In this document: positions 9,660 through 52,769 of the stretch, piece after piece
How the letters are laid out: the number at the start of each line of letters is the position of its first letter
How positions within the stretch are numbered: the first letter of the stretch is position 1
NCBI GenBank assembly: GCA_963706095.1
Contig: OY970149.1
Span: 832,173 to 896,172, forward strand
Reading direction: 5' to 3'
DNA length: 64,000 nt
Source: an uncultured Chloroflexia bacterium
Lineage (GTDB): Bacteria; Chloroflexota; Limnocylindria; Limnocylindrales; CSP1-4
The notes under the pieces: generated by a model
What the model saw: only the letters and a program-made list of their open reading frames with translations
Database searches by the model: none
Told to the model about the DNA's origin: nothing
Made by a program: the position numbers and the translations under genes

Positions 9660-9702
9660 GCGCCCGCCGCGATACTCCCCTGGGGTATACGCCGATGCTA
9701 CG

Positions 9703-18419: not shown

Positions 18420-19538
18420 CTACTCCGGCAGCGGCCGCTCGTCGGGGCCGATGTAGCGCACGTCGGGCCTGATCAGCCGGTTGGCCGAAGCCTGCTCGAG
18501 GATGTGCGCCGTCCAACCGGCGTGGCGCGCGAGGGCAAACGTCGCCGGGAAGAGATCGGGCGTCAGTCCGACACCCTCAGCACGGGCGCTGCGTAGAACT
18601 CGACGTTGGTCTTGAGCGGCCGGTCGGGGTGCTTCTCGGCCAGGACCTTGAGCGCGACGTCCTCGACAGCGATGGCGAGGTCGAGCCAATCGGGCCGGTG
18701 CGCCATCGCATTCCGCGACTTCGCGCAGCGCCGCGGCGCGCGGGTCGTAGGCGCGGTAGACGCGGTGCCCGAAGCCCATCAGCCGCTCGCCTCGGGCGAG
18801 CGTCTCGCGCACCCACTGCTCGGCGCGCTCGACGGAGCCAACCTCGTGGAGCTGCTCGACGACCTCGGACGGCGCGCCGCCGTGGAGCGGGCCCTTGAGC
18901 GCGCCGATGGCGCCACATACGGCCGAGGCAATGTCGCTGCGCGTCGAGGTGATGACGCGCGCTGTGAAGGTCGAGGCGTTGAAGCCGTGCTCCGCGCCGA
19001 CGACGAAATAGGCATCGAGCGCGCGGGCGGTGGCGTCGTCGACACGCTCGCCGTTCAGCTGGTAGAGAAATCCCGGCACGGTGTCGAGCGACGGATCCGG
19101 GTCGACCGGCTCCTGGCCGTTGCGAATGCGAGCGAAGGCGGCGAGCGCCGAGGGCGAGAACGCGGTCAGCGCGCGTGCCTGCTCGACGGTCGGCGGCCAG
19201 CTCAGGTTCTGGGCGGCACCCCATGCGGAGACGGCGGTGCGCAGCGCGTCCATCGGCTTTGAGTCGGTGGGCAGAGCGCGCAGCGCCGCCAACACACCAT
19301 CCGGCACGGGCTCGAGTGGAAGCCGAGCGTCGGGTCGCCACTCGTCGGTCCACAGCAGCTCGGCCACGCTGGCGTAAGAGCCCCTGTGGACCAGATCACG
19401 AATCGAGTAGCCCCGATAGAGGAGCCGACCCTCGGCGCCGTCGATATAGGCCAGCGCCGTCTCGCCCGCGAGGACCCCCTCCAGGCCCGGTGAGTAGGGC
19501 CGATCGTCCACCATCTGTCTCTCCCTGGGGCTTGTCAT
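18420..19538 (-). pseudogene. Citrate synthase (small, CitZ/archaeal-type), internal out-of-frame patch around 18590-18715
   Basis: LEGVLAGETA...YRGYSI.DL, GAEHGFNASTF, LKGPLHGGA, MGFGHRVY. The expected ...WLDLAIAVEDVALKVLAEKHPDRPLKTNVEFYAAPVL is readable only in another frame. The C-terminus GLTPDLFPATFALARHAGWTAHILEQ is back in frame. Confidence 0.8.
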
Positions 19539-20146
19539 TTGACCGGCGCGACGGCGCTGCGCGACTCGAGCAGCGCACCCGCCGCGAGCATCTCTTCGAC
19601 TGCCCGCTCGCCATCACCCGGCTGAAGGTTCACGGCACGAACGCCGTTCTGGAGAACAGTTGTCGGGTAGCCGCGCTCGCGGGCGTCGAGCACGGTCGAC
19701 TTGACGCAGTAGTCCGTGGCCAGTCCACAGATGACCAGCTGGGTCACGCCGGCCGCGCCAAGCAGGTCGCCCAGCTCGGTGGCAATCGTCTCGCCACTGA
19801 CCGGGTCGCGCATCGTGAAGCCGGAGTAGCCGTCCTCGCCGTTGCTGCCCTTGCGCACGACGGGACCGTTCGAGTCGAGGTCCGGGTGAAGCTGGGCGCC
19901 CCAGGTTTCGCTGACGCAGTGGACCGGCCAGATACCGCCATCCTTCTCGAAATGCGGCGTCGACTCGGGATGCCAGTCCTGGGTATAGAACACCGGCGCT
20001 CCGGCCGCGCGCGCCCTGCCGATCTCCGCGTTGACGAACGGCACGACGCGCTCACCTTCGGCCACGTACAGGCTGCCCTCGGGATCGGCGAAATCGTTCT
20101 GGACGTCGACGACGAGCAGGGCGGTTGTCGGGTCGTAGGTGGGCAC
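19535..20146 (-). CDS. pncA: Nicotinamidase/pyrazinamidase (isochorismatase family)
   Basis: ALLVVDVQNDF, YTQDWHP, VHCV, ICGLATDYCV. ATGA overlap with the citrate synthase start. Confidence 0.8.
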   Translation of the reverse strand: MPTYDPTTALLVVDVQNDFADPEGSLYVAEGERVVPFVNAEIGRARAAGAPVFYTQDWHPESTPHFEKDGGIWPVHCVSETWGAQLHPDLDSNGPVVRKGSNGEDGYSGFTMRDPVSGETIATELGDLLGAAGVTQLVICGLATDYCVKSTVLDARERGYPTTVLQNGVRAVNLQPGDGERAVEEMLAAGALLESRSAVAPVK

Positions 20147-27941: not shown

Positions 27942-28883
27942 TCAGACGCCGATCGGGTGCCAGACCGTCTTGATCTCGAGGTACGTCGCGATCCATTCGG
28001 GCCGCTGCGCGCGGCGGTCGTCGAGCCAGTCGAAGCGCTCGTCGGCGTCGCGTGGCGGGCGGGCGACGCGCTTGACGCTGTCGATGGCGGACTCCTCGAC
28101 CTGTGCGCGCATGTCGCGCGGCACGCCCCAGGTGTCGATGGCGTTGACGTCCATGTGCGCCGCCAGGATCGGGTACGAGCTCGCGTCGCAGGCCGGTCAG
28201 GATGTTGATCACGCCGGCCGGAACGTCCGACGTGGCCAGCACCTCGCTCAGGGTCACCGCCGGCAGCGGCCGCGTCTCCGACGCGAGCACGACCACGGCA
28301 TTGCCGCCAACCACGGCCGGTGCCACGCGCGAGACGAGTCCCAGGAGCGAGGAAGTCTCCGGCGCGACGATGCCAACCACGCCGGTCGGCTCGGGGATGC
28401 TGAAGTTGAAGTACGGCGCGCCGACCGGGTTCACGGTGCCCAGCACCTGGGTGATCTTGTCAGCCCAGCCGGCGTACCAGACCCAGCGGTCTATCGCCCG
28501 ATCGACGACGGTGCGATGCGGCCTCTGTCGGATAGCCCCTCGGCCGCGGCGACCTCGTCCACGAATTGCGCGCGGCGTCCTTCCATCAGCTCGGCGACCC
28601 GGTACAGCACCTGGCCGCGGTTCATGGCGGTCTTGCCCGCCCAGCCGGCAGCCGCGCCACGCGCCGTGCGCACCGCGTCGCGCAGGTCCTTGCGCGACGA
28701 GCGGACGGCATTGGCGAGCGGCGCGCCGTCCGGCGCGCGGACGACGTAGCTGCGTCCCGATTCCGAGCGCGGGAACTGGCCACCGACGTACAGCTTGTAC
28801 GTCTTGCGCACGGGTATGCGCGCCGCCGTCGCGGGCTGCGCGGGCTTGACCGGCTGCAGCGCGCGCGACTTATTCGTTGCCAT
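27942..28883 (-). pseudogene. Aldehyde-dehydrogenase-like protein lacking the catalytic domain (about 314 aa); two frame changes near 28515 and 28170
   Basis: MATNKS...KTYKLYVGGQFPRSESGRSY, AIDRWVWYAGWADK, VVGIVAPE, VINILTG, then ...AIDSVKRV goes directly to an ALDH-like C-terminal tail EWIATYLEIKTVWHPIGV. I saw no ELGGK or catalytic Cys segment in any frame. Confidence 0.55.
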
Positions 28884-29208
28884 GCTGCCTGGTTTCCGGG
28901 CGCTCGAGCAGCAACGTGTACGCCGGTCCGTCGGCAGCCACGGGACGGTGCTCAGTGCCAGCGCGGACCACGTACAGGTCGCCGGCCGAGAGCGCGACCG
29001 GCTCGCCGCCCTCGAGCTCGATCTCGAAAGAGCCGCTCCAGCACAGGAAGAGCTCGTCCTCGTCGTGGTGATGCCACGGAAATTCGCCGTCGAGGCGCGC
29101 CAGCCGAACGATCGCGTCGTTCGCGAGCACCAGGTCCTGCGGCTGCCATGGCTCGGTCAGTGCCGCTGCGGCATCGGTGATGGAGATGGCGTGCTCGAGC
29201 TGAGGCAT
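28870..29208 (-). CDS. Cupin domain protein
   Basis: Internal Met MPQLEH... [26 protein letters not shown]...[15 protein letters not shown] (two-motif cupin signature). Confidence 0.7.
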
Positions 29209-29224: not shown

Positions 29225-30796
29225 TCAGTGGCCGTCGCCCGTGTCGAGGTACGCCAGCAGGCCGGGCACGCCGCCCTCGCGGCCGAAGCCCGACTCCTTG
29301 TAGCCACCGAAGGGCGAGGTGGGGTCGAAGCGGTTGAACGTGTTGGCCCACACGACGCCGGCACGCAGCTTGCTGACCATGTGCAGGATGCGGCTGCCCT
29401 TCTCGGTCCAGACGCCCGCGGACAGGCCGTAGGCGGTGTTGTTGGCCTTCTCGATCGCCTCGGCCGGCGTGCGGAAGGTCAGCACCGACAGGACCGGCCC
29501 GAAGATCTCCTCCTGGGCGATGCGGCTCGACTGGCTGACGTTGGTGAACAGCGTCGGTCGGAAGAACCAGCCGCGCGCCGGCAGGTCGCAGGCTGGCTGG
29601 TACATCTCGGCGCCCTCGGCCTGGCCGGCCTCGACCAGCTCCTCGATCTTGGCCAGCTGGGCGGCGTTGTTGATCGCGCCGACGTCGGTGTTCTTGTCGA
29701 GCGGGTCGCCAACGCGTAGCGTCGACAGACGGTCCTTGAGGCGCTCGACGAAGGGCTCGACGATCGATTCCTGGACGAACAGCCGGCTGCCAGCGCAGCA
29801 CACCTCGCCCTGGTTGAAGAAGATGCCGTTGACCACGCCCTCGATGGCCTGGTCGATCGGCGCGTCGTCGAAGATGATGTTGGCCGCCTTGCCGCCCAGC
29901 TCGAGCGTCAGCGCCTTGTCGCTGCCGGCGACGGCACGGCCGATCTGCTTGCCCACCGCGGTCGAGCCGGTGAAGGCGACCTTGTCCACGTCTGGATGCT
30001 TTACCAGCGCCAGGCCGATCTCGCCGGGGCCGGTGATGATGTTGACGACGCCCGGCGGCAGGTCGGCCTGGCGGCACACGTCGGCAAAGAAGAGCGCGCT
30101 CAGGGGCGTCGAGCTGGCCGGCTTGAGCACCACCGTGTTGCCCGCGGCCAGTGCCGGCGCGATCTTCCAGGCGAGCATCAGCAGCGGGAAGTTCCAGGGG
30201 ATGACCTGCGCGGCGACGCCGAGCGGTTGCGGGTCGCGGTTCGGGAACGCGTACTCGAGCTTGTCCGCCCAGCCCGCGTAGTACCAGAAGTGGGCCGCGG
30301 CGAGCGGCACGTCGACGTCGCGCGACTCCTTGATGGGCTTGCCGCCGTCGAGCGACTCGAGGACAGCGAACTCGCGGCTGCGCTCCTGCAGGATGCGCGC
30401 GATGCGGAACAGGTACTTGGCACGCTCGCTGCCGGGAAGCTTCGCCCCACTCGCGACGGAACGCCCGGCGCGCGGCGCCGACGGCCTGGTCGACGTCCTC
30501 GACAGTGGCGCGCGCGATCTCGGCGAGTGGCTCCTCGGTTGCCGGATCGACGGTCGTGAACCACTGGCCGCCGCGCGGCGCCGACTTCCTTGCCATCGAT
30601 GAACAGTCCGTAGCGTGACTTGAGCTGGACGATGTCGCGCGCTTCGGGCGCCGGACGCGTACTCCCACGGAACCTGCTGGCCGTCGCCGAGCGCCCAGCT
30701 GTTGGGCGAGGGCGTGCCCCGCCCGACATCTGCCGATCGCGCCCGTGGCGTCAGGGCGCGCTCCTCGGATACCTCGACTGACTTGCGTCGTGCCAT
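29225..30796 (-). pseudogene. NAD(P)-dependent aldehyde dehydrogenase; three +1 shifts in the N-terminal about 130 codons
   Basis: The body is intact: VIPWNFPLLM, FTGSTAVGK, LELGGKAANIIF, EVCCAGSR, EEIFGPV. N-terminal pieces WEYA / PEARDIVQLKSRYGLFIDG / GGQWFTTVDPATEEPLAEIARATVEDVDQAV lie in three successive frames (ORFs ending 30796, 30729, 30668). Confidence 0.8.
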
Positions 30797-37935: not shown

Positions 37936-38014
37936 CAGGTACTGATCTTAACCCGCCAGCCACCCGCTGCCCAGTGTCGCAATCAGTTTGCACTTGACAT
38001 CGCTGGCTCTTGAG

Positions 38015-38030
38015 GTGACCTTGTGGTCAC
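38015..38030. promoter_or_regulatory. Palindrome GTGACCttgtGGTCAC abutting the ArsR-family start codon (copy 3, likely autoregulatory operator)
   Basis: Seen directly. It ends 1 nt before ATG 38031. A TTGACA hexamer lies about 16 nt upstream. Confidence 0.55.
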
Positions 38031-38312: not shown

Positions 38313-38315
38313 CCC

Positions 38316-39296: not shown

Positions 39297-39368
39297 GGCT
39301 GCAGTGTCGCCGCTGGCGACGTGCGCGCAACGCCTCGACGCGCCGAATTCGTTAACGTTTCAAGCGTC

Positions 39369-40199
39369 GTGACTTCGCTCTTCTCCCGTCGCAGCCTGCT
39401 CGTTACTGCCCTGCTCCTGTGTGCGCTGGTCGCGGCGCCGGCCGGGCCGGCGGGCGCCGCGACGTGGCCGGGCCGCATGTCGATCTGGCACGGCAGTGCG
39501 TTTGCGCCGCAATACCTCGACGCATCGTGCGTCGGCGCCACGATCCAGATCATGCTCAACGTCATTCACAACCGGTCGAGCGACGGCAAGGGCGTGCAAC
39601 TCGAGTACCTCGATTACGCAGCCGACAACAGCGAGTACCCGGTGACCGATGGCGGCGCAGACCCAGAAGGCTGGGCGATGGCCATGCGGCGCTACGGTGG
39701 CGGCGACGACTACGGCTGGGTGAACGACGACACGATCGAGCAGGCGCTCCATCGTGCTGCGAGCCAGATGCGCAAGACCGGCAAGCCAGTCGGCCTGCTC
39801 GTCCACTTCGGACGCCACGCATGGGTCATGACCGGCTTCGAGGCAACCGCGGACCCGAACGTGACCAACGACTACGAGGTGACTGCCGCGGAGGTCGTCG
39901 GTCCACTGTGGCCGAGTGGCACGCTCAACGGCACGAAGTTCGACCCGGGTCCGCGGACGTGGCAGGACGTGCGCACGCTTTCGCGCAAGTTCGACGAGTA
40001 CGTCGTGCCCGGCCACACGATCTGGTTCGACAAGTTCGTCACGATCGTGCCCCGCGCGAGCGACACCAGCCATCTCGCGGGTCGGCCCGAGCAGCCCAAC
40101 GCCGATCTGCCCGACCTGGCATCGGCGGCCGGCTGGATCTGGGTCTTCAATCGCCTCGCACAGCGCTTCCCGGTGCGCGGCTTCCTGTGGCTCCCGTGA
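39369..40199 (+). CDS. Secreted papain-like (C39-like) cysteine peptidase domain protein (tentative)
   Basis: Signal peptide ...LLLCALVAAPAGPAGAA. Candidate catalytic Cys in QYLDASCVGATIQIML and His in GRHAWVMTGF. Confidence 0.4.
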   Translation: MTSLFSRRSLLVTALLLCALVAAPAGPAGAATWPGRMSIWHGSAFAPQYLDASCVGATIQIMLNVIHNRSSDGKGVQLEYLDYAADNSEYPVTDGGADPEGWAMAMRRYGGGDDYGWVNDDTIEQALHRAASQMRKTGKPVGLLVHFGRHAWVMTGFEATADPNVTNDYEVTAAEVVGPLWPSGTLNGTKFDPGPRTWQDVRTLSRKFDEYVVPGHTIWFDKFVTIVPRASDTSHLAGRPEQPNADLPDLASAAGWIWVFNRLAQRFPVRGFLWLP

Positions 40200-40228
40200 C
40201 CTTTTTCACGTCGTGACCTCGTTCACGT
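40195..40228. repeat. Tandem 17-nt direct repeat; each unit is an inverted repeat CGTGA-N6-TCACG
   Basis: CGTGACCTTTTTCACGT / CGTGACCTCGTTCACGT (15/17 identical). Unit 1 contains the peptidase stop and unit 2 contains the DUF971 GTG start. Confidence 0.8.
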
Positions 40229-40602
40229 CGGGCGGGGAGTACCTCGTCCCGACCGCCGTCCACGCCGACCGCGCGGCGCAGCAGCTCGAGCTCACGTGGC
40301 CCGACGGGCACGTCACCCGCTACGACTTCCTCACCCTGCGCTGGCTGTGCCCGTGCGCCTATTGCCGCGGCGAGGCCGGCATTCCTGGCTGGCTCGACTC
40401 GAATCCGACGCTCAGCCCGGCGCAGACGGAGCTGACCGATCTTGCGCTCGTCGGCAGCTACGCCCTTCAGCCGACCTGGGCCGATGGGCACCACACCGGC
40501 TTTTACACGTTCCATCGGCTGCGCGAGGAGTGTCCGTGCGCCGAGGACACGGCCGCGCGCCGAGTCGCAACGGGTGCCACGGCCCGACCGCGGCTGGGCT
40601 GA
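40213..40602 (+). CDS. DUF971 (gamma-butyrobetaine-hydroxylase N-terminal-like, Zn-binding) protein
   Basis: LELTWPDGHVTRYDFLTLRWLCPCAYCRGE ... ALQPTWADGHHTGFYTFHRLRE.CPC. Confidence 0.65.
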   Translation: MTSFTSGGEYLVPTAVHADRAAQQLELTWPDGHVTRYDFLTLRWLCPCAYCRGEAGIPGWLDSNPTLSPAQTELTDLALVGSYALQPTWADGHHTGFYTFHRLREECPCAEDTAARRVATGATARPRLG

Positions 40603-40654
40603 GGGTTTGAGTACCAAAGACCGGTAGCGCGGCGGTGCCACAAGGCACCACCAT

Positions 40655-42866
40655 GTGGCTCGTGCAGACCCGAGCGCTAGACTGAGCCGCCCCATGGCAG
40701 TCACGCGCGAATCAGACAATGAAACCGCCACCGGATCGACGCCGGTGCGCGATCGTATGCCCGCCGTACGGCCCCGCCGCAGGGCGCGCGCCGACATCCC
40801 GTACATCAACCGCGAGCTGTCGTGGCTGGAGTTCAACGATCGCGTGCTCTTCGAGGCGGTCGACGAGCGCAACCCGCTGCTCGAGCGGGTGCGCTTCCTC
40901 TCGATCTTCGCGAGCAACCTCGACGAGTTCTTCCAGGTTCGCGTCGCCGGCCTGAAGCAGCAGGTCGCCGCGGGGCGCTCGTCGCCGACGCCGGACGGCA
41001 TGAGCGCTGCCGAGACGCTCGATGCCATCGCGCACGCGCCTTCTGCCGATGGTCGCGCGCCACTCGGAGACGTTCGCGATCATCCGCGCCGAGCTGGCCG
41101 AGGAGGAGATCCGCATCGTCGGCTACGAGCGAGCGGCCGGAGCGCCATGTCGAGCTGCGTGAGCGCTTCTTCGACGAGATCTTCCCCGTGCTGACGCCGC
41201 TCGCCGTCGACCCCGGACATCCCTTCCCGTACATCAGCGACCTTTCGCTCTCGCTCGCGGTGACGCGTGCGCGACCCCGAGAGCGGCGAGCGACTGTTCG
41301 CGCGGATCAAGGTGCCGCCCATCCTGCCGCGGCTGATGGAAGTCGCGCCGCAGACGTACGTGCTGCTCGAGCAGGTCATCGCCGCCAACCTCGACGCGCT
41401 CTTCCCGGGCATGGAGGTCATCGAGCACCACCTCTTCCGAGTCACGCGCAACGCCGACCTCTCGATCGAGGAGGAGGAGGCGCCCGACCTGCTGATGGCG
41501 ATCGAGGAGGAGCTGCGCAAGCGGCGCTTCGGCAAGGTCGTCCGGCTCGAGATCGAGCGCTCGATGCCCCACCCGACGCGGCAGCTGCTGATGCGCGGCC
41601 TGGGCATCGAGCCGGCTGACGTCTACGAGATCGCGGGCATGCTCGATCTCGACGGCCCTCAACGCAATCGCCGATCTCGACGTGCCCGAGCTGCTTCATC
41701 CCGTGCCTGCAGCCGGTCACCCCGCCGCGACTGCAGGCACCCGATCCCGACGAAGAGGCCGACATCTTCGCGGCTATCCGTGCCGGCGACCTTCTGATCC
41801 ATCACCCGTACGAGTCCTTCGCGAGCATCTGTCCAGCGCTTCATCGAGCAGGCCGCCGACGATCCTGACGTGCTGACGATCAAGCAGACGCTGTACCGCA
41901 CCAGCGGCGATTCGCCCATCGTTCGAGCGCTCATCCGCGCCGCCGAGTCGGGCAAGCAGGTGGTCGTCCTGGTCGAGATCAAGGCGCGCTTCGACGAGCA
42001 GGCCAACATCGTCTGGGCACGCGCACTGGAGAAGGCCGGCGCCCACGTCACCTACGGGTTGGTCGGGCTGAAGACGCACTCGAAGGTCGCCCTGGTAGTC
42101 CGGCGCGAGGGCCGTGGCCTGCGTCGCTACGTGCACATCGGAACCGGCAACTACAACCCGCGGACAGCGCGCAGTACGTCGACCTGGGCCTGCTGACGAC
42201 CGACATGGAGCTTGGCGCCGACGTGACCGAGCTCTTCAACCTGCTGACCGGCCACTCGCGCCAGAAGCGCTACCGGCGGCTGCTCGTTGCCCCGACGACG
42301 CTGCGCATCGGGCTTGAGCGAGATGATCGACCGAGAGCGCCAGCGCCAGATCGAGCACGGCGACGGTCGCATCGTCATCAAGTGCAACGCCATCGTCGAC
42401 CCGCAGCTGATCCGGGCGCTGTACGAGGCGGGTGCGGCAGGCGTGCAGATCGACCTGATCGTGCGCGGCATGTGCTCGCTCCGGCCGGGCGTGCCCGGGC
42501 TGTCGCGAGACGATCCGCGTGCGCTCGGTCGTCGGCCGGTTCCTCGAGCACTCGCGCATCTTCGTCTTCGGCCGCGACGATCGCGAGCAGTTCTTCATCG
42601 GCTCGGCCGACTTCATGGAGCGCAACCTCGACCGTCGCGTCGAGGCCATCGCACCCGTGCTCGAGGCCGATGCAAGGGCGCGGCTGCGGCGAACCATCGA
42701 GATCATGCTCGAGGACGATCGCCGAGCGTGGCAACTTGCCGCGGACGACCGATGGACGCGTGTCGAGGACACGATCGAGGAGCGCCGTGGCATCGACACC
42801 TTCGAGGCCGTGATGCAGGAGGCACAAGCCCAGGCTCAGGCCCCGGCGACGCTCGCCGTACCGTGA
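40655..42866 (+). pseudogene. ppk1: Polyphosphate kinase 1; about 9 frame changes as assembled
   Basis: [102 protein letters not shown] and [10 protein letters not shown] are spread over fragments in frames 2>0>1>2>0>1>2>1>2>0. Confidence 0.85.
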
Positions 42867-44494
42867 CCGATCGCCGGTCGCGTCGCACGCCCGCGGATGA
42901 GCGTGAGCTCGAGCTCAAGTATTCGGTCAACGACGAGCCCGGCGTCCGCGCCCTGTTGGACGGGGAGCGGCTGGCCGGGTTCGAGTGCGGGCCATGGCGC
43001 ACGGTCGAGGTAGAAGACCGCTATCTGGACACGAGCGATCGCGCCCTTGCGGCGACCGGCTACGGCGCCCGCCTGCGTGGCGTGGGCGGGCGCAGCGTGG
43101 TCACGGTAAAGAAGGAGATCGGTGCGGCGCCGCGAACGCGCAGCGTGCGTCCGAGTCGTGCCCTGAGCGATCGCATGGAGCTCGAGGCGCCCGCTGGCCG
43201 CGGGCTTGATCCGCGCCGCTGGCCCGAGAGCGCAGCACGGTCCCTCATCGAGGCGGCATCGCGCGGCCAGCCGCTGCGCACCCTCTTCGAGATCAACCAG
43301 CGGCGCGAAGAGCGCGACCTGCTCCAGGATGGCGAGGTGGTCGCCCGGCTGTCGCTCGACTCGGCCACAGTGCGCCGCTTCGGCCGCGCGAGGGGCAGCT
43401 TCACGACGCTCGAGATCGAGGCCGCGCGCGAGCTTGCCGATGACCGGCGCGTCGTGCTCGATCAGCTGGCGACGGTGTTCGACGATGTCGCCGAGCTGCG
43501 GCCCGAGCCGCGCTCGAAGATGCAGCTGGCGGCGCAGGTCATCGCCCGCGGCACGGAGACCAAACGTGCGGCGCGTCCGCCTCGCCAGCCGGGCGTCGTC
43601 CGTGATGATCCGCTCAGCGAAGCCGGGCGCAAGATCCTGCGCCTGCACATGCTGCGCATGCTCGCCGCCGAGCCCGGCGTGCGTGCCGGCCGTGACCCAG
43701 AGCACGTCCACAAGATGCGCGTTGCCACGCGGCGCATGCGCGCCGCGTGGCGCGTGTTCGATGGCGCGTACAGGCCTCGTTTCGCGCGGCGCTACGTCGA
43801 CGAGCTGCGCACCGTGGCCGCCGCGCTCGGCGGCGTGCGCGATCAGGACGTGCAGCTCGAGCGGCTGAATGCGTTTCGGACTGGTGAGGACTCCCCGACC
43901 GGTGCTGGGCTGGACCCGCTCGCCGCCGAGTGGCAGCGCCGGCGCAACGTGGCGCGGGGGACCTTGATCGACCTTCTCGACTCGGAGCTGTATGACGGCT
44001 TCACGACCGACTACCTGGTCTTCGTCGAGACACCCGGTGCAGGTGCCAATGGCAACGAGCGCGTCGCCGACGTTGCCGGGGGCCGGATCTGGCGCGCGTA
44101 CGAGCGGCTGCGCGCGCATGACGTGACGCTGGCCTGGGCCGACACCGCGGCCCTGCACGAGCTGCGCATCGACGGCAAGCGCTTCCGCTACGCGCTCGAA
44201 TTCTTCAAAGAGGTGCTCGACGAGGGCGCGGACAGCGTCATCGCCGACGTGACGCGGCTGCAGGACCACCTGGGCAACCTCAACGACGCGCACATCAGCG
44301 CCGATCTCACACGCACGTGGCTGCTCGAAGCCGCGGCTGGGCTGACAACCGAGCAGCGCGACGCGGTGGGCGCCTACCTGCACGCCAACGAGCAGGACGT
44401 AGCGCGGCTGACGCGCTCGTTCGGTCCGCTCTGGCGGGCCCTCACCGGGCGGCCATTTCGACGGCGCCTCGGATCCGTCGTCTCGTCGGTCTGA
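42863..44494 (+). CDS. CYTH (triphosphate tunnel metalloenzyme) - CHAD domain protein
   Basis: The GTG overlaps the ppk1 stop (GTGA). ExExK motif [12 protein letters not shown] region [17 protein letters not shown] ... [17 protein letters not shown]. An uninterrupted 543 codons. Confidence 0.75.
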
Positions 44495-44498
44495 GCGA

Positions 44499-44542
44499 GT
44501 TAACCGGCCCTTAACCGGGCGCCAACGAGACGTTCACCGACG
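44499..44542 (+). promoter_or_regulatory. Array A of four phased 11-nt direct-repeat units (PHO-box-like)
   Basis: GTTAACCGGCC|CTTAACCGGGC|GCCAACGAGAC|GTTCACCGACG, read directly, about 260-300 nt upstream of pstS. Confidence 0.45.
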
Positions 44543-44667
44543 GCCCAGAACATCGCCGTGGAATACATCGAGGGTTCGCACAGAGCCCACTGGGAGGGCT
44601 CCCGCCTCCCTCCTCCTTGACCGCCGGGGCCGGTACGCCGACCGCCCCGGCGGTTGCCGTTGAGGCC

Positions 44668-44711
44668 GTTAACAAAGCCTTAACAACGAACAAACGCCGC
44701 GTTGAAACAGC
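44668..44711 (+). promoter_or_regulatory. Array B of four phased 11-nt direct-repeat units (PHO-box-like)
   Basis: GTTAACAAAGC|CTTAACAACGA|ACAAACGCCGC|GTTGAAACAGC, about 90-135 nt upstream of the pstS ATG. Same unit pattern as array A. Confidence 0.5.
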
Positions 44712-44801
44712 GGCTCGACCGTTGGCGCATCCGAATAACGGAGTGCCGGGTTGGCGCGCCCGAGTGGGGCGGACCGGCGAACTAGGAGGAAGCAACACCA
44801 C

Positions 44802-45980
44802 ATGCATGGAACTCTGACCCGCCTCGTTCTCCTCGCAGTCGTCGCGATGTTTGTCGCGGTCGCCTGCGGCGGCGGCGGGGCCACAACCGCACCGACCCAG
44901 GCCACGGCCACTTCCGGAGCGGGCACATCAGCACCTGCCACGGATGAGCCGGCGGCAACGGATGGGCCAGCGGCCACCGATGAGCCAGCAGCAACGGATG
45001 GGCCAGCAGCAACGGATGAGCCCACGACCGAAGTCCCGACCGGCATCGCCGGCAGCGTCGACATCCATGGATCGTCGACCGTCGCGCCAATCTCGAACGC
45101 CGTCGCCGAAGACATCCAAGAGGTGAACCCGGAGTTCGAGCTTCGTCGTCGGCGAAGAGGGCACCGGCGCCGGCTTCGAGGACTTCTTCTGCGTCGACGG
45201 CTCGGACATCTCCGACGCGTCGCGCCAGATCAGGGCCAGTGATCCGGAGACCGAGGATCGCCGAGGAGTCCGACATCTGCGCCGAGAACGGCGTCGAGTT
45301 CGTCGAGCTCAAGGTCGCCTACGACGGCCTCGCGGTCATCACGCAGCCCTGAGAATCCGCTGACATGCCTGACGTTCGCCGACCTCTACGCCCTGATGGG
45401 CCCCGAGGCAGACGCGATCGCCAACTGGAACGACGCTGAGGCGCTGGCCCAGGAGCTTGGGTCCACGACCGACCTGCCCGACGCAGCAGCTGTCGATCAC
45501 CGCACCGGGCGATGAGTCCGGCACCTACGACAGCTTCATCGAACTGGTGATGGGCGACTTCATCGAGGAGCGCGAGGCCGAGGAGCGGCTGCGCACTCCG
45601 GGCGACGTCTACGTCGCATCGCCCAACGACAACGTCATCATCCAGGGCGTCGTCGGCTTCCCGTCATCGCTCGGCTTCGTGGGCCTGGCCTACGCTGAGG
45701 AGAACGCCGACATCGTCAAGATCCTCGAGATCGACGGCGGCGACGGTTGCGTCGCTCCCTCGTCCGAGACGGTCTCGGACGGCACGTATCCCGATCTCGC
45801 GCCCGCTGTTCATCTACCCCAACCTGGGCCGGGCAGCGAGCAACGCCGCAATCGTGGCCTACGTCGACTACTACCTGTCGGACGAGCGGCATCGCCAACG
45901 CAGCCGAGGTCGGCTACGTCCAGCTGCCGACGGAGGAGCTCGAGGCCACCCGCGCCGCGTGGGAGGCAGCCAAGCCCTAG
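44802..45980 (+). pseudogene. pstS: Phosphate ABC transporter substrate-binding lipoprotein; about 6 +1 shifts
   Basis: RBS AGGAGGA, lipobox FVAVAC. Pieces: GSVDIHGSSTVAPI, FVVGEEGTGAGFEDF, ISDASRQI, NGVEFVELKVAYDGLAVI, APGDESGTYDSF, GFVGLAY, YPISRPLFIY-like, EVGYVQLP. They lie in frames 0>1>2>0>1>2>0. Confidence 0.8.
44937..45026 (+). repeat. Coding tandem repeat, 18 nt x5, encoding (ATD[EG]PA)5 linker of PstS
   Basis: ATDEPAATDGPAATDEPAATDGPAATDEPT, read from the ORF track and DNA. Confidence 0.85.
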
Positions 45981-46007
45981 GACCGACTCAACCAGTCACT
46001 CCTCCAA

Positions 46008-46039
46008 CAGGCAGGCCGGTCTCCTCACCGGCCTGCCTG
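46008..46039 (+). promoter_or_regulatory. Intercistronic hairpin between pstS and pstC
   Basis: Perfect 12-bp stem CAGGCAGGCCGG / CCGGCCTGCCTG with an 8-nt loop and no T-tract. This is the usual position for a pstS mRNA-stabilising or attenuating structure. Confidence 0.5.
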
Positions 46040-46082
46040 CCCCTTCCGCTTCCGCTCAACCACTGCGATCCTTCAGGAGACC

Positions 46083-47024
46083 GTGACCAGCACCACACCG
46101 GCCACTCCGCTGACAGTCGGCGACCTGCGCGGTAGCGCTGCACGACGACGCCGCGAGACGATCATTCGCGGCGCCTTCCTCGTCGCGGCATCGACCGCGG
46201 TCGTCATCTCGCTGCTCATCGTCCTGACGCTGATCGGCGAGGCGATCGCCTTCATCACCGAGGTCGACGTAGCGAGCCTGCTCGGCCTGTCCTGGCAGCC
46301 GCGGGCAGATGACTTCGGCGTCGTGTCGCTCATCGGCGGCACGTTCATCATCGCCGGCATCGCGATGCTCGTGGCCGCGCCGCTCGGGCTCGGCGCGGCG
46401 ATCTATCCTGGCCGAGTACGCCAGCCCACGAGTGCGTCGGCTGGTCAAGCCGATCCTCGAGATCCTGGCGGCCATCCCGAGCGTCGTGCTCGGATTCTTC
46501 GCCTTGACGGTCCTGTCGCCGACGCTGATCAACCCGATCTGTCCCGGTCCCACGCCGATCTTCAACATGGCGGCGGCCGGACTCGCGGTGGGCATCCTGA
46601 TCACGCCGCTGATCGCGTCGATCGCCGAGGACGCCATGTATGCCGTGCCGAGACTCGCAGCGCGAGGCGTCGTACGGGCTGGGCGCGCGCAAGCGCGTTA
46701 CCAGCCTGCGCATCGTCTTCCCGGCCGCCGTCTCGGGCATCGTTGCCTCGCTCATCGTCGGGTTCTCGCGCGCGCTCGGCGAGACGATGATCGTGTCGAT
46801 CGTCGCCGGCGGCGTTGGCGGCGCGGTGCTTCAACCTCAACCCGTGCCTGCCCGGCCAGACGATGACCGCGGCGATGACCGCGCTGGCCGTCGGCTCCGA
46901 CCAGGCCGGCGGCGGCATCGTCACGTCGAGCCTCTTCTTCGTCGGGCTGCTGCTCTTCGTGCTGACCCTGGCTCTGAACCTCATCAGCGAGCGCTTCGTG
47001 CGCCGGGTCAGGGCGGCCCTCTGA
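46083..47024 (+). pseudogene. pstC: Phosphate ABC transporter permease; 3 +1 shifts
   Basis: Fragments 46083, 46309, 46640 and 46815 (frames 0>1>2>0): LAEYASPRVRRLVKPILEILAAIPSVVLGFF, EASYGLGARKRVT, RALGETM, LFVLTLALNLISERF. Confidence 0.8.
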
Positions 47025-47026
47025 TG

Positions 47027-47980
47027 TCAGTCTTCGCGCCGACCTCCACCCCGGCCACCGCGGCGGCCGTCCAGCGTGCACTGACCGGCCAGCGTCGGCC
47101 GGTGGGCGAGTACGTCTTCCAGGGGCTGTCTGTTCGCATCGCTGCTCATCGCGCTGGGCGTCCTGGTCTGGCTGCTGATCGACATCTTCATGCGTTCGCT
47201 GCCGGTCTGGCAGGATCGCGGCGTCCAGGAGCTTCGTCGGCTCGCAACCTGTCGTCCGACCCGGAAAAGGCGGGCATCGCCCAGGGCCTCTTCGGCTCGG
47301 TGATGCTGATGGTCATCTCGACGGGCCTGGTCATTCCGATCGGCGTCGCCGCGGCGATCTACCTCGAGGAGTACGCGACCGACAACCGCGCTGACGCGTC
47401 TGCTGAACACGACCGTCCGCAACCTGGCCGGCGTGCCGGCCGTCGTCTACGGGCTGCTCGGCCTGTCGGTGTTCGTGGCCCTCATGGACCGCGAAGACCT
47501 GAACAACGGCCGCAACCTGCTCGCCGGCGGCCTGACGCTGGCGATCGTCGTCCTGCCCATCGTGATCATCACCGCCGCCGAGGCACTGCGCTCGGTGCCG
47601 CGGTCGATCCGCGAGGCCGGCTTCGGGGTCGGTGCGACCAAGTGGGAGGTAGTGCGCAGCCACGTGCTGCCGTACGCCGCGCCGGGCATCTTCACCGGCA
47701 TCATCCTGACCATCGCCCGTGCCTTCGGCGAGACCGCGCCGCTGCTGTTGGTCGGCGCCGCGGCCGCCGGCTTCGGCCAGGCGGCCAGCGCCACGATCGT
47801 CGAGCAGGCTCCTCGGTCCGTACACGGCGCTGCCGACGACGATCTACAGCTGGGCGACGCCAGCCCCAGGAGGAGTTCAAGGCGCTCACCGCGGCGGCCA
47901 TCGTCGTGCTGCTCGCGGTCGTCTTGCTCATCAACGCCATAGCCATCATCCTGCGGAACAGATATGAACGAAGGTGGTGA
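47027..47980 (+). pseudogene. pstA: Phosphate ABC transporter permease; about 6 +1 shifts
   Basis: LLIALGVLVWLLIDIF, AGIAQGLFGSVMLM, AAIYLEEYA, NLAGVPAVVYGLLG, REAGFGVGATKWEV, RAFGETAPLL and ILRNRYERRW lie in frames 2>0>1>2>0>1>2. Confidence 0.8.
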
Positions 47981-48854
47981 TCCCGTGACCCTCGAGAGCC
48001 CCGTCCGACCCGAGTCGGTGGCGGAGCTGGAGCAGCACATCAAGGTGGCAGCCGTCCCGGCCGCGGCCGAGGCGCCCATCGCCGGACCACCGCCGGTCTT
48101 CGAGCTGCAGAACTTCAGCGCGTACTACGGCACGTTCCGGGCCATCAAGGACATTCGACGCCTGGATCCAGCCGAACCAGATCACGGCGTTCATCGGACC
48201 TTCGGGCAGCGGCAAGAGCACCGTGCTGCGCTGGCTGAATCGAATGAACGACCTCGTGCCCGGGCGCTCACATGAGCGGCAGCGTCCTCTACCACGGTGT
48301 CGATCTGTTCGACAAGCGCGTCGATGCGGTCGAGGTGCGGCGGCGCATCGGCATGGTCTTCCAGAAGCCCAACCCCTTCCCCAAGTCGATCTACGACAAC
48401 GTCGCCTTCGGGCCACGCGTCGCCGGCTACAAGGGCAAGATGGACGACCTGGTCGAGGAATCGCTCCGCCGCGCAGCGATCTGGGACGAGGTCAAGGACA
48501 AGCTCAAGCAGCCCGGCACAGCGCTCTCGGGCGGCCAGCAACAACGCCTGTGCATCGCCCGCGCCATCGCCGTGTCAGCCGGACGTGATCCTGATGGACG
48601 AGCCGTGCTCGGCGCTCGATCCGGTGGCGACGCTCAAGATCGAGGAGCTCATGTTCGAGCTCAAGGAGAACTACACGATCGTGATCGTGACCCACAACAT
48701 GCAGCAGGCGGCGCGCGCGTCGGACGAGACGCTGTTCATGACGATGGGCGAGGACCGCGCCGGCTACCTGGTCGAGACCGGACCAACAACCGAGATCTTC
48801 ACCAACCCCAAGCAGCAACTGACCGAGGACTACGTGTCCGGCCGGTTCGGCTGA
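47964..48854 (+). pseudogene. pstB: Phosphate ABC transporter ATP-binding protein; 3 +1 shifts
   Basis: [25 protein letters not shown] (frame 1), [21 protein letters not shown]...[17 protein letters not shown] (frame 2), [13 protein letters not shown]...[17 protein letters not shown] (frame 0). Confidence 0.85.
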
Positions 48855-48864
48855 GGAGGGAGTC

Positions 48865-49666
48865 ATGGACCAGAGCGAAAACAACCACGACGCGTCGGAC
48901 TCGGCCATCGAGAGCTCGACCCCCGCAGCCGTCTCGCTGATCGAGGGCGACGTCGTCGCCCCGACGGCCGAGATCGACCTCTCCGTCCGCGGCATACGCC
49001 CGCATTACGCGTCGCGCGACGTGCTCGACCGCGAGCTGCGCGAGATCAAGGACGAGGTCCTGCGCATGGGCAGCCTCGTCGCGAGCCAGATCAGCCTCGC
49101 GATCGAAGCGCTGGTCGAGCACGACACCGAAAAGGCCATGGCCACGATCGTCGGTGACGGCCGCATCAACGAGGCGCAGCGCCACGTCGCGACACTGATC
49201 ACGACGACGATCGCGACCCAGCAGCCTGTCGCGCGCGACCTGCGCTTCCTGCTGGCGTTGGACCACGTGACGTACGAGCTCGAGCGCATGGGCGACCATG
49301 CCGCTTCTGTCGCCAAGCAGGCGCGCAAGCTGGCACCGCAGCCGCCGCTGAGGCGCTACGTCGATCTGCCCACGATGGGCGACCCTGGCCGCCGAGCAGG
49401 TTCGCGGCGTGCTGCGCGCCCTGGTCGATCTCGACGTCGTCGTCGCCCGCGAGGTCGCGGCCATAGATGACGAGATCGACCGGCTCTACCACGCGATCTT
49501 CGAGGAGGTCCTCGAGCTGATGCGCGCCGACCCGGAAAACGTTGACCGGGGCACGCGTGTGCTATTCGCCGCGCACTACCTCGAGCGCATCGGCGATCGT
49601 GTCACCAACATCGCCGAAGACGTCGTCTTTCTCGCCACGGGAGACGTCGAAGACCTGAACCCGTGA
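48865..49666 (+). pseudogene. phoU: Phosphate signalling complex protein PhoU; one +1 shift near 49385
   Basis: Two PhoU repeats (INEAQRHV.., ARDLRFLLALDHVTYELERMGDHA; AIDDEIDRLY.., AHYLERIGDRVTNIAE) split between ORFs 48865-49470 and 49409-49666. Confidence 0.8.
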
Positions 49667-50121
49667 GCGGCAACGGGTCTCACGCGCCGATCCGGGTGCT
49701 GTTCGTGTGCACCGGCAACTCAGCTCGCTCGCTAATGGCCGAGGCACTGTTGCGTCACCACGGCGGCGCCGCATTCGAGGTGTTCTCAGCAGGCACGGAG
49801 CCCAAGGGCGTCAATCCGCTGACCGTGCGGACACTTGAGGAAGCGGGCCTGCCGACCCACGAGCTCAACTCGAAGCCGGTCGAACAATTCCTTGGTCAGA
49901 GCTTCGACTATGTCGTAACCGTCTGCGACCAGGCGCGCCAGTCGTGCCCGGTGTTTCCGGGTAGCCAGCAGGCTCTGCACTGGGGCTACGAGGATCCCGC
50001 CGACGCGACTGGGAGCGAAGAGGAGCGGATGGCCGTCTTCCGTTCCGTCTTCACGCAGCTAGGTCAACGGATCAGTCAGTTCGTGATCATCGCCCGCCGT
50101 GGTTCCGAAGCCGTCGCCTAG
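49663..50121 (+). CDS. arsC: Arsenate reductase, thioredoxin-coupled LMW-PTP family
   Basis: P-loop VLFVCTGNSARS, second Cys pair VTVCDQARQSCPVFPG. The GTG overlaps the phoU stop (GTGA). Confidence 0.7.
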   Translation: MSGNGSHAPIRVLFVCTGNSARSLMAEALLRHHGGAAFEVFSAGTEPKGVNPLTVRTLEEAGLPTHELNSKPVEQFLGQSFDYVVTVCDQARQSCPVFPGSQQALHWGYEDPADATGSEEERMAVFRSVFTQLGQRISQFVIIARRGSEAVA

Positions 50122-50384
50122 GACGCGATCTGGCGATCCCTAAACCGAAGCTTGAAATCGACCCGCGTGATCACTTCGTGTGCGGCCTCTATCTGGGTCC
50201 GGCATCTGTCGAGCTGCTCCTTCGTCGCGGAGCTCGTGTCAGTCAAGTCCTGATACATGTCGCGCAGGCTCATGACCGCGCGGCGCACGCCCTCATGGTC
50301 GGGGTCGATGCGCGGCAGGTCGCGCAGCAACCGCTCGCCCTCACGCCACTCCGCCAGAGCCCGCTCGACGAGTTGAGCCGGCAT
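50118..50384 (-). CDS. Small helical protein, W-R-x-G-E-R-L-L family (paralog of 16070-16549 N-terminus)
   Basis: Internal Met MPAQLVERALAEWREGERLLRDLP..DHEGVRRAV.S....Y..LT.TSS. About 40 percent identity by eye to the 16-kb copy over about 75 aa. Confidence 0.45.
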   Translation of the reverse strand: MPAQLVERALAEWREGERLLRDLPRIDPDHEGVRRAVMSLRDMYQDLTDTSSATKEQLDRCRTQIEAAHEVITRVDFKLRFRDRQIAS

Positions 50385-50476
50385 GTTGCCCTTCCCTCCA
50401 CCTCCGCGACTCGGCACCACGGGGGCCCTTATTGGCACGATTGTCAGTCGGCTGTCAAGAACAATACCCTTGCCGG

Positions 50477-50983
50477 GTGGATGCACCCGACGAGATCACC
50501 GAGCTCGAGATCTACCTGCTCCGGCACGCCCATGCGGGCGACTCTGCGGCCTGGAACGGGCCCGACTCCGAGCGACCGCTCAGCCCCAAGGGTCGAAGGC
50601 AGGCCCACAACCTGGGCCAATTCCTGGCTGACCGCGCTTTTGCCGCGGATGCGATCGTGAGCAGCCCCAAGGTACGGGCGCGTCAGACCGCCGAGCTTGT
50701 TGCCGACGCCCTGGGCATCGGCGTCACCCTCGACGAGCGGCTGGGTGGTGCCCTGGACCTTGATGTCCTTGGTGCGCTCCTCGATGCCACCGGCGGGACG
50801 AGCGTCGTGCTCGTCGGCCACGATCCCGACTTCACCGAGCTGGCGATGGGCCTGACCGGCGCTGCTTACCTGCCCATGAAGAAGGGCGCGCTGGCGCGCA
50901 TCGATACCTCCCTGCCGATCCAGCCCGGCGCCGGCATCCTGCGCTGGCTGCTGCCCCCGGACCTCATCGCCGACCGGCTCTAG
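50477..50983 (+). CDS. Histidine phosphatase superfamily protein, SixA-like
   Basis: LEIYLLRHAHAG (RHA/RHG motif), SPKVRARQTAE, VLVGHDPDF. The start is uncertain (GTG 50477 or TTG 50432). Confidence 0.65.
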   Translation: MDAPDEITELEIYLLRHAHAGDSAAWNGPDSERPLSPKGRRQAHNLGQFLADRAFAADAIVSSPKVRARQTAELVADALGIGVTLDERLGGALDLDVLGALLDATGGTSVVLVGHDPDFTELAMGLTGAAYLPMKKGALARIDTSLPIQPGAGILRWLLPPDLIADRL

Positions 50984-50997
50984 CTCCTCGCGGGATC

Positions 50998-52762: not shown

Positions 52763-52769
52763 GGACCGC

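What the first reader, a model, noticed from the sequence alone, without database searches (positions are those of the whole stretch)
40655..49666. About 46 frame changes, about 40 of them +1, clustered in particular genes (ppk1 and pstSCAB hit hardest)
I stitched conserved motifs across ORF-track fragments and inferred frame changes in 15 genes:
- opuCA 2, first opu permease 1, cofE about 4, trxB 1, speE-like 2, citrate synthase 2, TreS-like 1, ALDH-like 2, ALDH 3;
- ppk1 about 9, pstS 6, pstC 3, pstA 6, pstB 3, phoU 1.

Twenty-eight of these lie between 40.6 and 49.7 kb. The 1.6-kb CYTH-CHAD gene embedded there is intact, as are ppx, DUF971 and arsC at the edges. So are many 1-2 kb genes elsewhere (ABC exporter, KS, gltX, GH43).

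The direction is strongly biased. Using fragment start mod 3:
- pstS runs 0>1>2>0>1>2>0;
- pstC 0>1>2>0;
- pstA 2>0>1>2>0>1>2;
- pstB 0>1>2>0;
- the minus-strand ALDH makes three +1 steps back to its starting frame.

Between shifts the peptides stay highly conserved, with catalytic motifs intact. Natural bacterial pseudogene decay is deletion-biased and accumulates substitutions as well. This pattern therefore looks like single-base insertion errors in the consensus, preferentially in conserved genes (for example mixed-strain or cross-recruited reads in a metagenome bin), rather than loss of Pst and PPK. If the insertions are real, the organism would have lost high-affinity phosphate uptake and polyP synthesis while keeping PPX and CHAD, which would be remarkable.
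Basis: partly seen in the sequence, partly recalled or inferred. Interest (0 to 1): 0.65.

Follow-up and report, generated by a model that had tools for sequence, protein, structure and literature searches.

The report
Assembly insertion errors in phosphate genes
The 28 frame breaks in the polyphosphate kinase and phosphate-transporter genes are really in this sequence, but they are almost certainly single-base insertion errors of a long-read metagenome assembly and not a real loss of these genes.

Summary
Frameshift-aware alignment to intact orthologues from a syntenic short-read contig (L018) gives ppk1 9 shifts, pstS 6, pstC 3, pstA 6, pstB 3 and phoU 1. That is 28 shifts, and 27 of them are one extra base. 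The CYTH-CHAD gene embedded in the stretch, and DUF971 and arsC at its edges, have none.

The shifts do not look natural:
- The extra bases avoid homopolymers (about 2 of 27 compatible, against 48% expected for random insertion).
- No sequence motif is enriched around them.
- The corrected genes show dN/dS of 0.07-0.20, like their intact neighbours.
- There is no excess of lineage-specific amino-acid changes (24 in the window against 26 in L018).

The truncated products exist on a single public contig of 2.89 Mb. In the 73 fetched relative loci scanned, candidate shifts are about six times denser in Nanopore-only Flye+Medaka MAGs than in the other, mostly short-read, assemblies, and 76% are +1. 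The same operon is riddled with +1 shifts at other positions in three other long-read contigs, and intact in three short-read assemblies and one long-read contig.

Verdict: this is a consensus or polishing artefact, probably from mixed read pile-ups. The exact cause cannot be shown without the reads. Biological interest is low, but it is a useful warning for metabolic inference from such MAGs.

The parts
40213..40602 (+). DUF971 (GBBH-like_N) gene, intact; left edge of the damaged stretch
   Evidence: The 129-aa product is 112/129 identical to L018 with no shift. The identical protein is found on a Logan contig of run ERR12035939 that is collinear with window 37435-40828 and ends there.
40694..42866 (+). 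ppk1 (polyphosphate kinase 1) carrying 9 frame shifts: +1 at 41030, 41127/8, 41264-6, 41650/1, about 41700-41707, 41825-7, 42306/7 and 42505/6; -1 at about 42171
   Evidence: Pfam PP_kinase_N, PP_kinase, PP_kinase_C_1 and PP_kinase_C are spread over fragments in different frames. Frameshift-aware alignment gives 637/721 identity to L018 PPK1. dN/dS is 0.13.
42863..44494 (+). CYTH-CHAD gene, intact (543 aa), embedded between damaged genes
   Evidence: Pfam CYTH and CHAD. There are 0 shifts against L018 and L017. The exact protein is present once in the public collection, on a 2,887,417-nt contig.
44817..45980 (+). pstS (phosphate-binding protein) with 6 +1 shifts at 45138, 45259/60, 45346/7, 45485-9, 45789-93 and 45883-6. 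The true start is probably a little upstream of 44817.
   Evidence: Identity to L018 PstS is 311/385 after correction.
46083..47024 (+). pstC permease with 3 +1 shifts at 46406-8, 46650-3 and 46825-9
   Evidence: Identity to L018 PstC is 257/312.
47024..47980 (+). pstA permease with 6 +1 shifts at 47128-30, 47231, 47244/5, 47390/1, 47804 and 47859-61. The net change is +6, so one 318-aa ORF stays open with a garbled middle.
   Evidence: Identity to L018 PstA is 284/316 after correction.
47964..48854 (+). pstB ATPase with 3 +1 shifts at 48153, 48258-65 and 48577/8
   Evidence: Identity to L018 is 258/294. The 103-aa truncated product is found only on the 2.89-Mb contig.
48865..49666 (+). phoU with one +1 shift at 49380/1
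   Evidence: The 201-aa product with an out-of-frame tail is found only on the 2.89-Mb contig. On a Logan contig of ERR12035939 the ORF that ends at the arsC start is open for 129 codons, against 104 in the window.
49663..50121 (+). arsC-like low-molecular-weight phosphatase (LMWPc), intact; right edge of the damaged stretch
   Evidence: Pfam LMWPc. There are 0 shifts against L018. The identical protein is on a Logan contig collinear with window 49276-52273.
29234..30784 (-). Aldehyde dehydrogenase with three +1 shifts (30655, 30582, 30446) that return it to the starting frame
   Evidence: Frameshift-aware alignment to the L103 523-aa Aldedh protein, 465/516 identical.
27945..28934 (-). Short ALDH-like gene with a +1 shift at about 28173 and a +2 (probably two +1) at about 28510-28530
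   Evidence: Alignment to the L103 321-aa Aldedh protein, 267/321 identical.
18420..19540 (-). Citrate synthase with one +1 shift (about 18710) and one -1 shift (about 18576, where the T of an ATG codon is missing)
   Evidence: Alignment to four relatives (L021, L023, L024, L025) gives the same two events. The Pfam Citrate_synt domain is split between frames.

Best explanation
The frame changes are errors of the deposited consensus sequence, not mutations of the organism.

The window comes from a 2.89-Mb contig of a Chloroflexota (Candidatus Limnocylindrales-like) metagenome-assembled genome. It was very probably built from Nanopore reads alone (metaFlye plus one round of Medaka, as in the Microflora Danica long-read MAGs).

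In some stretches the consensus step added single bases that are not in the genome. This broke ppk1, pstS, pstC, pstA, pstB and phoU 28 times, while the genes themselves are intact and functional in the cell.

The most likely trigger (inferred, not shown) is a heterogeneous read pile-up at this locus. Reads of co-occurring strains or sister species would be merged on one backbone, so that the consensus takes up bases from both variants as extra, non-homopolymer bases.
For: **Shown**
1. There are 27 single-base insertions against 1 deletion within 6.9 kb.
2. By parsimony against L018 DNA, only about 2 of 27 extra bases can be homopolymer extensions. Random insertion would give 48% (P = 8e-6). 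Natural slippage or classical Nanopore homopolymer error would give nearly all.
3. No 3- to 5-mer is enriched at the sites, so there is no methylation-type or slippery motif.
4. There is no relaxation of selection. dN/dS is 0.07-0.20 in damaged genes against 0.08-0.19 in intact neighbours. At sites where the outgroups agree, there are 24 window-specific changes against 26 L018-specific ones. No in-frame stop remains after correction.
5. The truncated products (ppk1 166 aa, pstB 103 aa, phoU 201 aa) exist in a collection of 15 billion proteins on one contig only, of 2,887,417 nt.
6. The reference-free detector gives:
   - window: 21 candidates per 57 kb coding, 20 of them +1;
   - 21 loci of Nanopore-only MFD MAGs: 58 per 397 kb (44 +1, 14 -1), very uneven between MAGs;
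   - 52 other, mostly short-read, loci: 18 per 723 kb (10 +1, 8 -1), which I take as background.
7. The same operon in other assemblies:
   - L101 (long-read): pstS 7, pstC 16, pstA 6, pstB 3-4, phoU 2, nearly all +1, while the ppk1 3' end, CYTH-CHAD, arsC and HisPhos are clean;
   - L100 (long-read naming): ppk1 4, phoU 1;
   - L099 (long-read): shifts throughout;
   - the positions mostly differ from those in the window;
   - short-read L018, L102 and L103 and long-read L017 have every gene full length.
8. Logan contigs of run ERR12035939 carry arsC and DUF971 proteins identical to the window's. They are collinear with it and stop at about 40828 and start at about 49276, flanking the damaged stretch. 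The phoU tail ORF there runs through the point where the window has a stop.

**From the literature**
- MFD MAGs are Nanopore-only Flye assemblies polished with one round of Medaka (PMC12313526).
- In a soil ONT metaFlye assembly only 56.8% of predicted proteins were at least 90% of full length (PMC13087279).
Against: - No reads were available, so no junction was checked at read level.
- That the window's contig is an MFD or Nanopore assembly is inferred. The grounds are its size, its sources (NCBI+ENA) and the fact that the relatives on contigs of several hundred kb to Mb that could be traced to a project are MFD Flye assemblies. The record itself was not shown.
- The Logan phoU fragment could not be retrieved. 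My predicted 129-aa sequence is not in the collection. Only one stop (TGA 49349) separates the two readings.
- The 'mixed pile-up' cause is not demonstrated. DeoC is as similar to L018 as ppk1 yet is undamaged. With the few relatives in hand, only ppk1, not the pst genes, stands out as unusually similar at DNA level.
- Insertion-biased, non-homopolymer errors are not the textbook Nanopore error mode.
Confidence: 0.93

Rival explanations
1. It is a technical artefact, but of another origin than mixed pile-ups. Candidates are locally low coverage, systematic basecalling error at modified bases, or an error introduced by a different polisher or platform (for example insertion-prone PacBio CLR).
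For: - Similarity to the fetched relatives does not separate damaged from undamaged genes.
- The frameshift load differs strongly between MAGs of the same project, as expected if coverage matters.
- The platform of the window's contig was not seen directly.
Against: - No sequence motif is enriched at the sites, which argues against methylation-linked errors.
- Low coverage would not spare the 1.6-kb CYTH-CHAD gene in the middle.
- Low coverage would not hit the same operon in several independent assemblies.
- Ordinary Nanopore errors sit in homopolymers, and these do not.
Confidence: 0.25
2. The insertions are real: this lineage has pseudogenised ppk1, pstSCAB and phoU while keeping ppx and CYTH-CHAD.
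For: - All damaged genes in this stretch belong to one functional module (phosphate uptake and polyphosphate synthesis).
- The embedded and flanking genes are intact.
- The shifts are in the deposited public record.
Against: - The ratio is 27 insertions to 1 deletion, against the general deletion bias of bacterial pseudogenes (established knowledge).
- The contexts are non-slippage.
- dN/dS is unchanged and there is no excess of lineage-specific replacements.
- After frame correction no stop codon remains, and there is no large deletion or IS element.
- Unrelated genes elsewhere in the window (ALDH, citrate synthase, trxB, opuCA) carry the same kind of shift.
- The same signature appears in other long-read assemblies and not in short-read ones.
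Confidence: 0.03
3. The shifts are decoded by recoding: programmed +1 ribosomal frameshifting, transcriptional slippage or RNA editing restores the frame.
For: The peptides on both sides of every junction are conserved, and nearly all shifts have the same sign.
Against: - There is no shared slippery or stimulatory motif.
- There is no codon-phase preference among the resolvable sites: 6, 4 and 3 in phases 0, 1 and 2.
- The sites are not conserved in orthologues, which are unshifted in four relatives: L017, L018, L102 and L103.
- Twenty-seven recoding sites in six genes would be without precedent.
Confidence: 0.005

Closest known systems
Consensus frameshift errors of Nanopore-only metagenome assemblies (metaFlye/Medaka), the kind measured by the IDEEL test
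   Same: - Genes are truncated or split while the peptide fragments stay conserved.
- The shifts are found in long-read contigs and not in short-read assemblies of relatives.
- The load varies between MAGs.
- Soil assemblies are reported to be badly affected, and strain heterogeneity is reported to cause polishing errors (PMC13087279, PMC12424758, PMC9262707).
   Different: - The classical description is of indels in homopolymers. Here the errors are almost all insertions and avoid homopolymers.
- They are concentrated in particular genes, and the same pst operon is hit in several assemblies.
Bacterial pseudogene decay (for example Mycobacterium leprae-type gene erosion)
   Same: There are multiple frame disruptions within genes of one pathway, with intact neighbours.
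   Different: - Natural decay is deletion-biased and slippage-driven. It is accompanied by substitutions, stop codons and raised dN/dS.
- None of this is seen here.
Programmed +1 ribosomal frameshifting (prfB/RF2 type)
   Same: A +1 change of frame lies inside an otherwise conserved coding sequence.
   Different: - prfB has one conserved site with a shifty codon, an in-frame stop and a Shine-Dalgarno-like stimulator, conserved across orthologues.
- Here there are 27 sites with no common motif, and orthologues are unshifted.

Membership tests
Long-read consensus/polishing artefact | The extra bases are not supported by the reads of the organism | not testable with these tools
   No read data are available. 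The only indirect hint is the Logan contig of ERR12035939, whose phoU tail ORF is open where the window has a stop.
Long-read consensus/polishing artefact | The same kind of error is present in other assemblies made the same way and absent from assemblies made with accurate short reads | tested here: met
   MFD Nanopore MAG loci have 1.46 candidates per 10 kb coding (76% +1), against 0.25 per 10 kb in other loci. The operon is broken in L099, L100 and L101, and intact in L018, L102 and L103.
Long-read consensus/polishing artefact | The affected genes show no evolutionary sign of inactivation | tested here: met
   dN/dS is 0.07-0.20. Lineage-specific replacements are 24 in the window against 26 in L018.
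Long-read consensus/polishing artefact | The window derives from a long-read-only assembly | tested here: inconclusive
   The proteins map to one 2,887,417-nt contig in NCBI+ENA, and the relatives on long contigs that could be traced to a project are MFD Flye contigs. The record itself and its platform were not shown.
Natural pseudogene | Deletion-biased indels, mostly at repeats or homopolymers | tested here: not met
   There are 27 insertions and 1 deletion. About 2 of 27 are homopolymer-compatible.
Natural pseudogene | Relaxed selection (raised dN/dS, stop codons, excess lineage-specific changes) | tested here: not met
   No stop codon remains after frame correction.
Programmed +1 frameshift | A conserved shift site with a slippery or stimulatory motif, shared by orthologues | tested here: not met
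   No motif is enriched. Orthologues in L017, L018, L102 and L103 are unshifted.
PPK1 / PstSCAB / PhoU gene families (identity of the damaged genes) | The family domains are present in the right order, with full-length collinearity to orthologues in conserved synteny | tested here: met
   Pfam PP_kinase_N, PP_kinase, PP_kinase_C_1 and PP_kinase_C are found on the ppk1 fragments. The corrected proteins are 81-90% identical to the L018 orthologues over their full length. The gene order from DUF971 through ppk1, CYTH-CHAD, pstS, pstC, pstA, pstB and phoU to the LMWPc gene is the same as in L018, and from ppk1 onward also in L017.

The most novel reading that the evidence does not exclude
The extra bases are real and recurrent. 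Under this reading, Limnocylindria-like soil bacteria carry an insertion-biased, non-slippage mutational or recoding process that repeatedly targets the pst-phoU-ppk1 phosphate module. It would be seen here and, at other positions, in three other long-read genomes. The genes would be either switched off en bloc or decoded by an unknown frame-restoring mechanism.
Probability: 0.02. Interest if true: 0.85.

Novelty: not a real feature. Interest (0 to 1): 0.12.

Why it matters
This matters mainly as a warning. The record is public. Gene callers will report ppk1, pstS, pstC, pstB and phoU as fragments, and pstA as a full-length but garbled protein. A metabolic reconstruction would therefore wrongly conclude that this lineage lacks high-affinity phosphate uptake and polyphosphate synthesis.

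The same operon is corrupted in several other long-read MAGs of the clade, so comparative studies could mistake a technical pattern for convergent gene loss.

The error signature is +1-biased, non-homopolymer and clustered by gene. It differs from the textbook Nanopore error and may be of interest to developers of polishers for strain-rich metagenomes.

Tried and rejected
**Searches that led nowhere**
1. I searched for near-identical proteins from independent assemblies in three ways:
   - a chimeric query of junction-spanning segments;
   - the predicted 129-aa PhoU tail;
   - exact look-ups of six sequences: the corrected PhoU (full length and its 129-aa tail), PstA, PstB and PstC, plus the intact CYTH-CHAD.

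No same-strain sequence was returned for any corrected protein. Only CYTH-CHAD was found, on the window's own contig. The list was swamped by PPK homologues.
2. A look-up of the window's own contig by the CYTH-CHAD protein gave nothing on record. The two Logan contigs have no DNA available.
3. The supplementary tables of the MFD paper are not held, so run ERR12035939 could not be tied to a project or platform.

**Ideas considered and rejected**
4. Insertions sit at codon boundaries (which would suggest a codon-aware manipulation). This was rejected. Among the 13 sites resolvable by parsimony, the phases are 6, 4 and 3.
5. The extra base shows a coding-strand G bias. G accounts for 13.5 of 27 on plus-strand genes, which is not significant, and the few minus-strand events do not mirror it.
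6. A motif or methylation context marks the sites. Nothing survives multiple testing.
7. Damage follows DNA conservation. It holds for ppk1 only. DeoC and the pst genes do not fit.
8. Shift sites are shared between assemblies. There are a few near-coincidences, but no more than chance.
9. The extra base plus its neighbour are two alleles placed in tandem. This is attractive and compatible with many sites, but it cannot be tested against random insertion without the reads.

Full report
**What is there.** The window has 68% G+C. It belongs to a Chloroflexota lineage near Candidatus Limnocylindrales.

Two syntenic relatives were fetched. L018 is a 15.6-kb MEGAHIT contig. L017 is part of a 2.43-Mb contig. 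Both carry, full length and in the same order, ppk1, CYTH-CHAD, pstS, pstC, pstA, pstB, phoU and an LMWPc/arsC-like gene. The Ppx gene lies upstream in both, and the DUF971 gene is called in L018 only.

I wrote a protein-to-DNA aligner that allows frame changes and ran it with their proteins. Against L018 the window shows:
- ppk1: 9 changes;
- pstS: 6;
- pstC: 3;
- pstA: 6;
- pstB: 3;
- phoU: 1;
- CYTH-CHAD, arsC and HisPhos: none.

Twenty-seven of the 28 changes are one extra base, and one (42171) is a missing base. The corrected proteins are 81-90% identical to L018, with conserved residues right up to each junction. A reference-free codon-position HMM finds the same frame track.

Outside the stretch I confirmed:
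- three +1 steps in the minus-strand ALDH;
- two or three shifts in the short ALDH-like gene;
- a +1 and a -1 in citrate synthase;
- split Pfam domains in trxB, the TreS-like gene and opuCA, and HMM frame changes alone in the speE-like gene.

The claimed shifts in cofE were not seen.

**Nature of the extra bases.** Codon-level comparison with L018 DNA and a parsimony assignment give four results.
- The extra base is almost never a copy of a neighbour. About 2 of 27 are compatible with a homopolymer extension, against 48% expected for random insertion at this composition (P = 8e-6).
- Among the resolvable sites there is no codon-phase preference (6, 4 and 3).
- No 3- to 5-mer is enriched around the sites.
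- The modest excess of G is not significant.

This is not the pattern of replication slippage, which dominates natural one-base indels. It is also not the pattern of classical homopolymer errors, or of a recoding signal.

**No evolutionary trace of inactivation.** After frame correction no stop codon remains.
- dN/dS against L018 is 0.07-0.20 in the six damaged genes and 0.08-0.19 in the intact neighbours.
- At sites where two or three outgroups agree, the window has 24 private amino-acid changes in the damaged genes and L018 has 26.

Twenty-seven neutral indels would normally come with a few hundred substitutions. This estimate rests on the roughly ten- to twenty-fold excess of substitutions over indels in bacteria, which is established knowledge. 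None of that excess is present.

**Where the sequence comes from.** The intact CYTH-CHAD protein is in the 15-billion-protein collection, on one contig only, of 2,887,417 nt, held by NCBI and ENA. So are three frame-shifted products with out-of-frame tails: ppk1 166 aa, pstB 103 aa and phoU 201 aa. The shifts are therefore part of the deposited assembly, and no other assembly shares them.

The relatives on contigs of several hundred kb to Mb that could be traced to a project are Flye 'contig_N' records of the Microflora Danica long-read project. That project's MAGs are Nanopore-only, assembled with Flye and polished once with Medaka (PMC12313526). That the window is one of these is an inference.

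**Comparison across assemblies.** The reference-free detector gives:
- window: 21 candidate shifts per 57 kb of coding sequence, 20 of them +1;
- 21 loci of MFD Nanopore MAGs: 58 per 397 kb (44 +1, 14 -1), very unevenly spread, with L066, L043, L086 and L081 the worst;
- 52 other, mostly short-read, loci: 18 per 723 kb (10 +1, 8 -1), which I take as the false-positive floor.

The same operon was then examined in further contigs.
- L101 (ERZ25039583 contig_7707, 1.58 Mb): pstS has 7 shifts, pstC 16, pstA 6, pstB 3-4 and phoU 2, nearly all +1. The 3' end of ppk1, CYTH-CHAD, arsC and HisPhos are clean.
- L100: ppk1 has 4 shifts and phoU 1.
- L099 (MFD00392.bin.2.302): shifts occur throughout.
- Short-read L018, L102 and L103, and long-read L017: every gene is full length.

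The positions mostly differ between assemblies. So the phenomenon is tied to the way the sequence was made, not to a lineage, and the pst operon is hit repeatedly.

**An independent glimpse of the same strain.** Two Logan contigs of run ERR12035939 carry DUF971 and arsC proteins identical to the window's and are collinear with it.
- They cover window 37435-40828 and 49276-52273. They therefore end about 200 nt before the first junction and start about 100 nt before the last one.
- On the second contig, the ORF ending at the arsC start is open for 129 codons. In the window that frame is closed by TGA at 49349, just upstream of the 49381 insertion.
- The simplest reading is that the k-mer assembly lacks the extra G, and that its graph breaks up across the damaged stretch because the reads there are heterogeneous.
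- The DNA and the protein could not be retrieved, so this is suggestive only.

**Most likely mechanism.**
- Shown: the errors are insertion-biased, non-homopolymer and clustered by gene, and they are specific to long-read assemblies.
- Inferred: at this locus, reads of more than one variant (co-occurring strains or sister species) were piled on one backbone. The consensus step then took up bases from both variants, giving extra bases where they differ.

Many junctions read as if two alternative bases stand side by side. One example is CTC-G-ACG where L018 has CTG ACC. Another is GAG-C-TTC where L018 has GAC TTC. I could not devise a test that separates this from random insertion without the reads.

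Published benchmarks report serious metaFlye polishing errors under strain heterogeneity (PMC12424758). They also report many truncated proteins in soil ONT assemblies (PMC13087279).

One point counts against a simple 'conserved genes attract foreign reads' version. DeoC is as similar to L018 as ppk1 and is undamaged. With the relatives in hand, only ppk1 stands out at DNA level. Other technical causes remain possible.

**Rivals.**
- Real pseudogenisation is contradicted by the indel direction, the contexts, the selection tests, the occurrence of the same shifts in unrelated genes of the window, and the contrast between assembly types.
- Recoding is contradicted by the lack of any motif and by unshifted orthologues.

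**Verdict.** The organism most probably has a working Pst system, PhoU and PPK1. There is no new biology here. The value of the finding is as a caution for users of such MAGs and as a description of an unusual error signature.

Noticed in passing
window 47024-47980: pstA keeps one uninterrupted 318-aa ORF despite six +1 insertions. The net change is +6, and the shifted frames of this high-GC DNA contain no stop. Length-based quality checks such as IDEEL would score it as full length, although about two thirds of the residues are out of frame.
   Followed up: yes
L101:5600-10470; L100:1600-3760 and 9660-10440; L099:800-11440: The same ppk1/pstSCAB/phoU module is riddled with +1 shifts in three other public long-read contigs. 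Two are Microflora Danica assemblies and one is from another project. In L101 the damage is confined to pstS-phoU, with clean neighbours, as in the window. Why this operon is hit repeatedly is unexplained.
   Followed up: partly
protein hits (for example P0140, P0144, P0149, P0167): Many 'PhoU' proteins of 125-156 aa sit on contigs of 40 kb to 1.6 Mb, whereas full-length PhoU here is 246-269 aa. The three that were checked are C-terminal fragments produced by a frame shift in phoU.
   Followed up: partly
window 37435-40828 and 49276-52273: The two Logan contigs of run ERR12035939 that match the window stop and start within about 100-200 nt of the first and last junction. This may mean that the de Bruijn graph branches, because the reads are heterogeneous, exactly across the damaged stretch.
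   Followed up: no
The F420-0:gamma-glutamyl ligase domain (positions 29-218 of 218) lies in one frame, and the frame HMM shows no change there.
   Followed up: partly
window 18576 and 42171: The two clear -1 events also lie in non-repeat contexts. Citrate synthase lacks the T of an ATG codon, and ppk1 lacks one base of an Arg codon. So the rare deletions share the non-homopolymer character of the insertions.
   Followed up: partly
window 51602-53459 (minus strand): A histidine kinase (78% identical to the L018 orthologue) and a response regulator lie just downstream of the operon and are intact. They are probably the PhoR/PhoP-type regulators of the Pst module.
   Followed up: no
L066 (CAVTQU010000003.1, MFD00392.bin.2.302), whole locus: This GTDB species-representative MAG has the highest density of candidate shifts of all loci scanned (8.4 per 10 kb coding). 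One example is a frame change in the linker of an ABC exporter that is intact in the window.
   Followed up: partly
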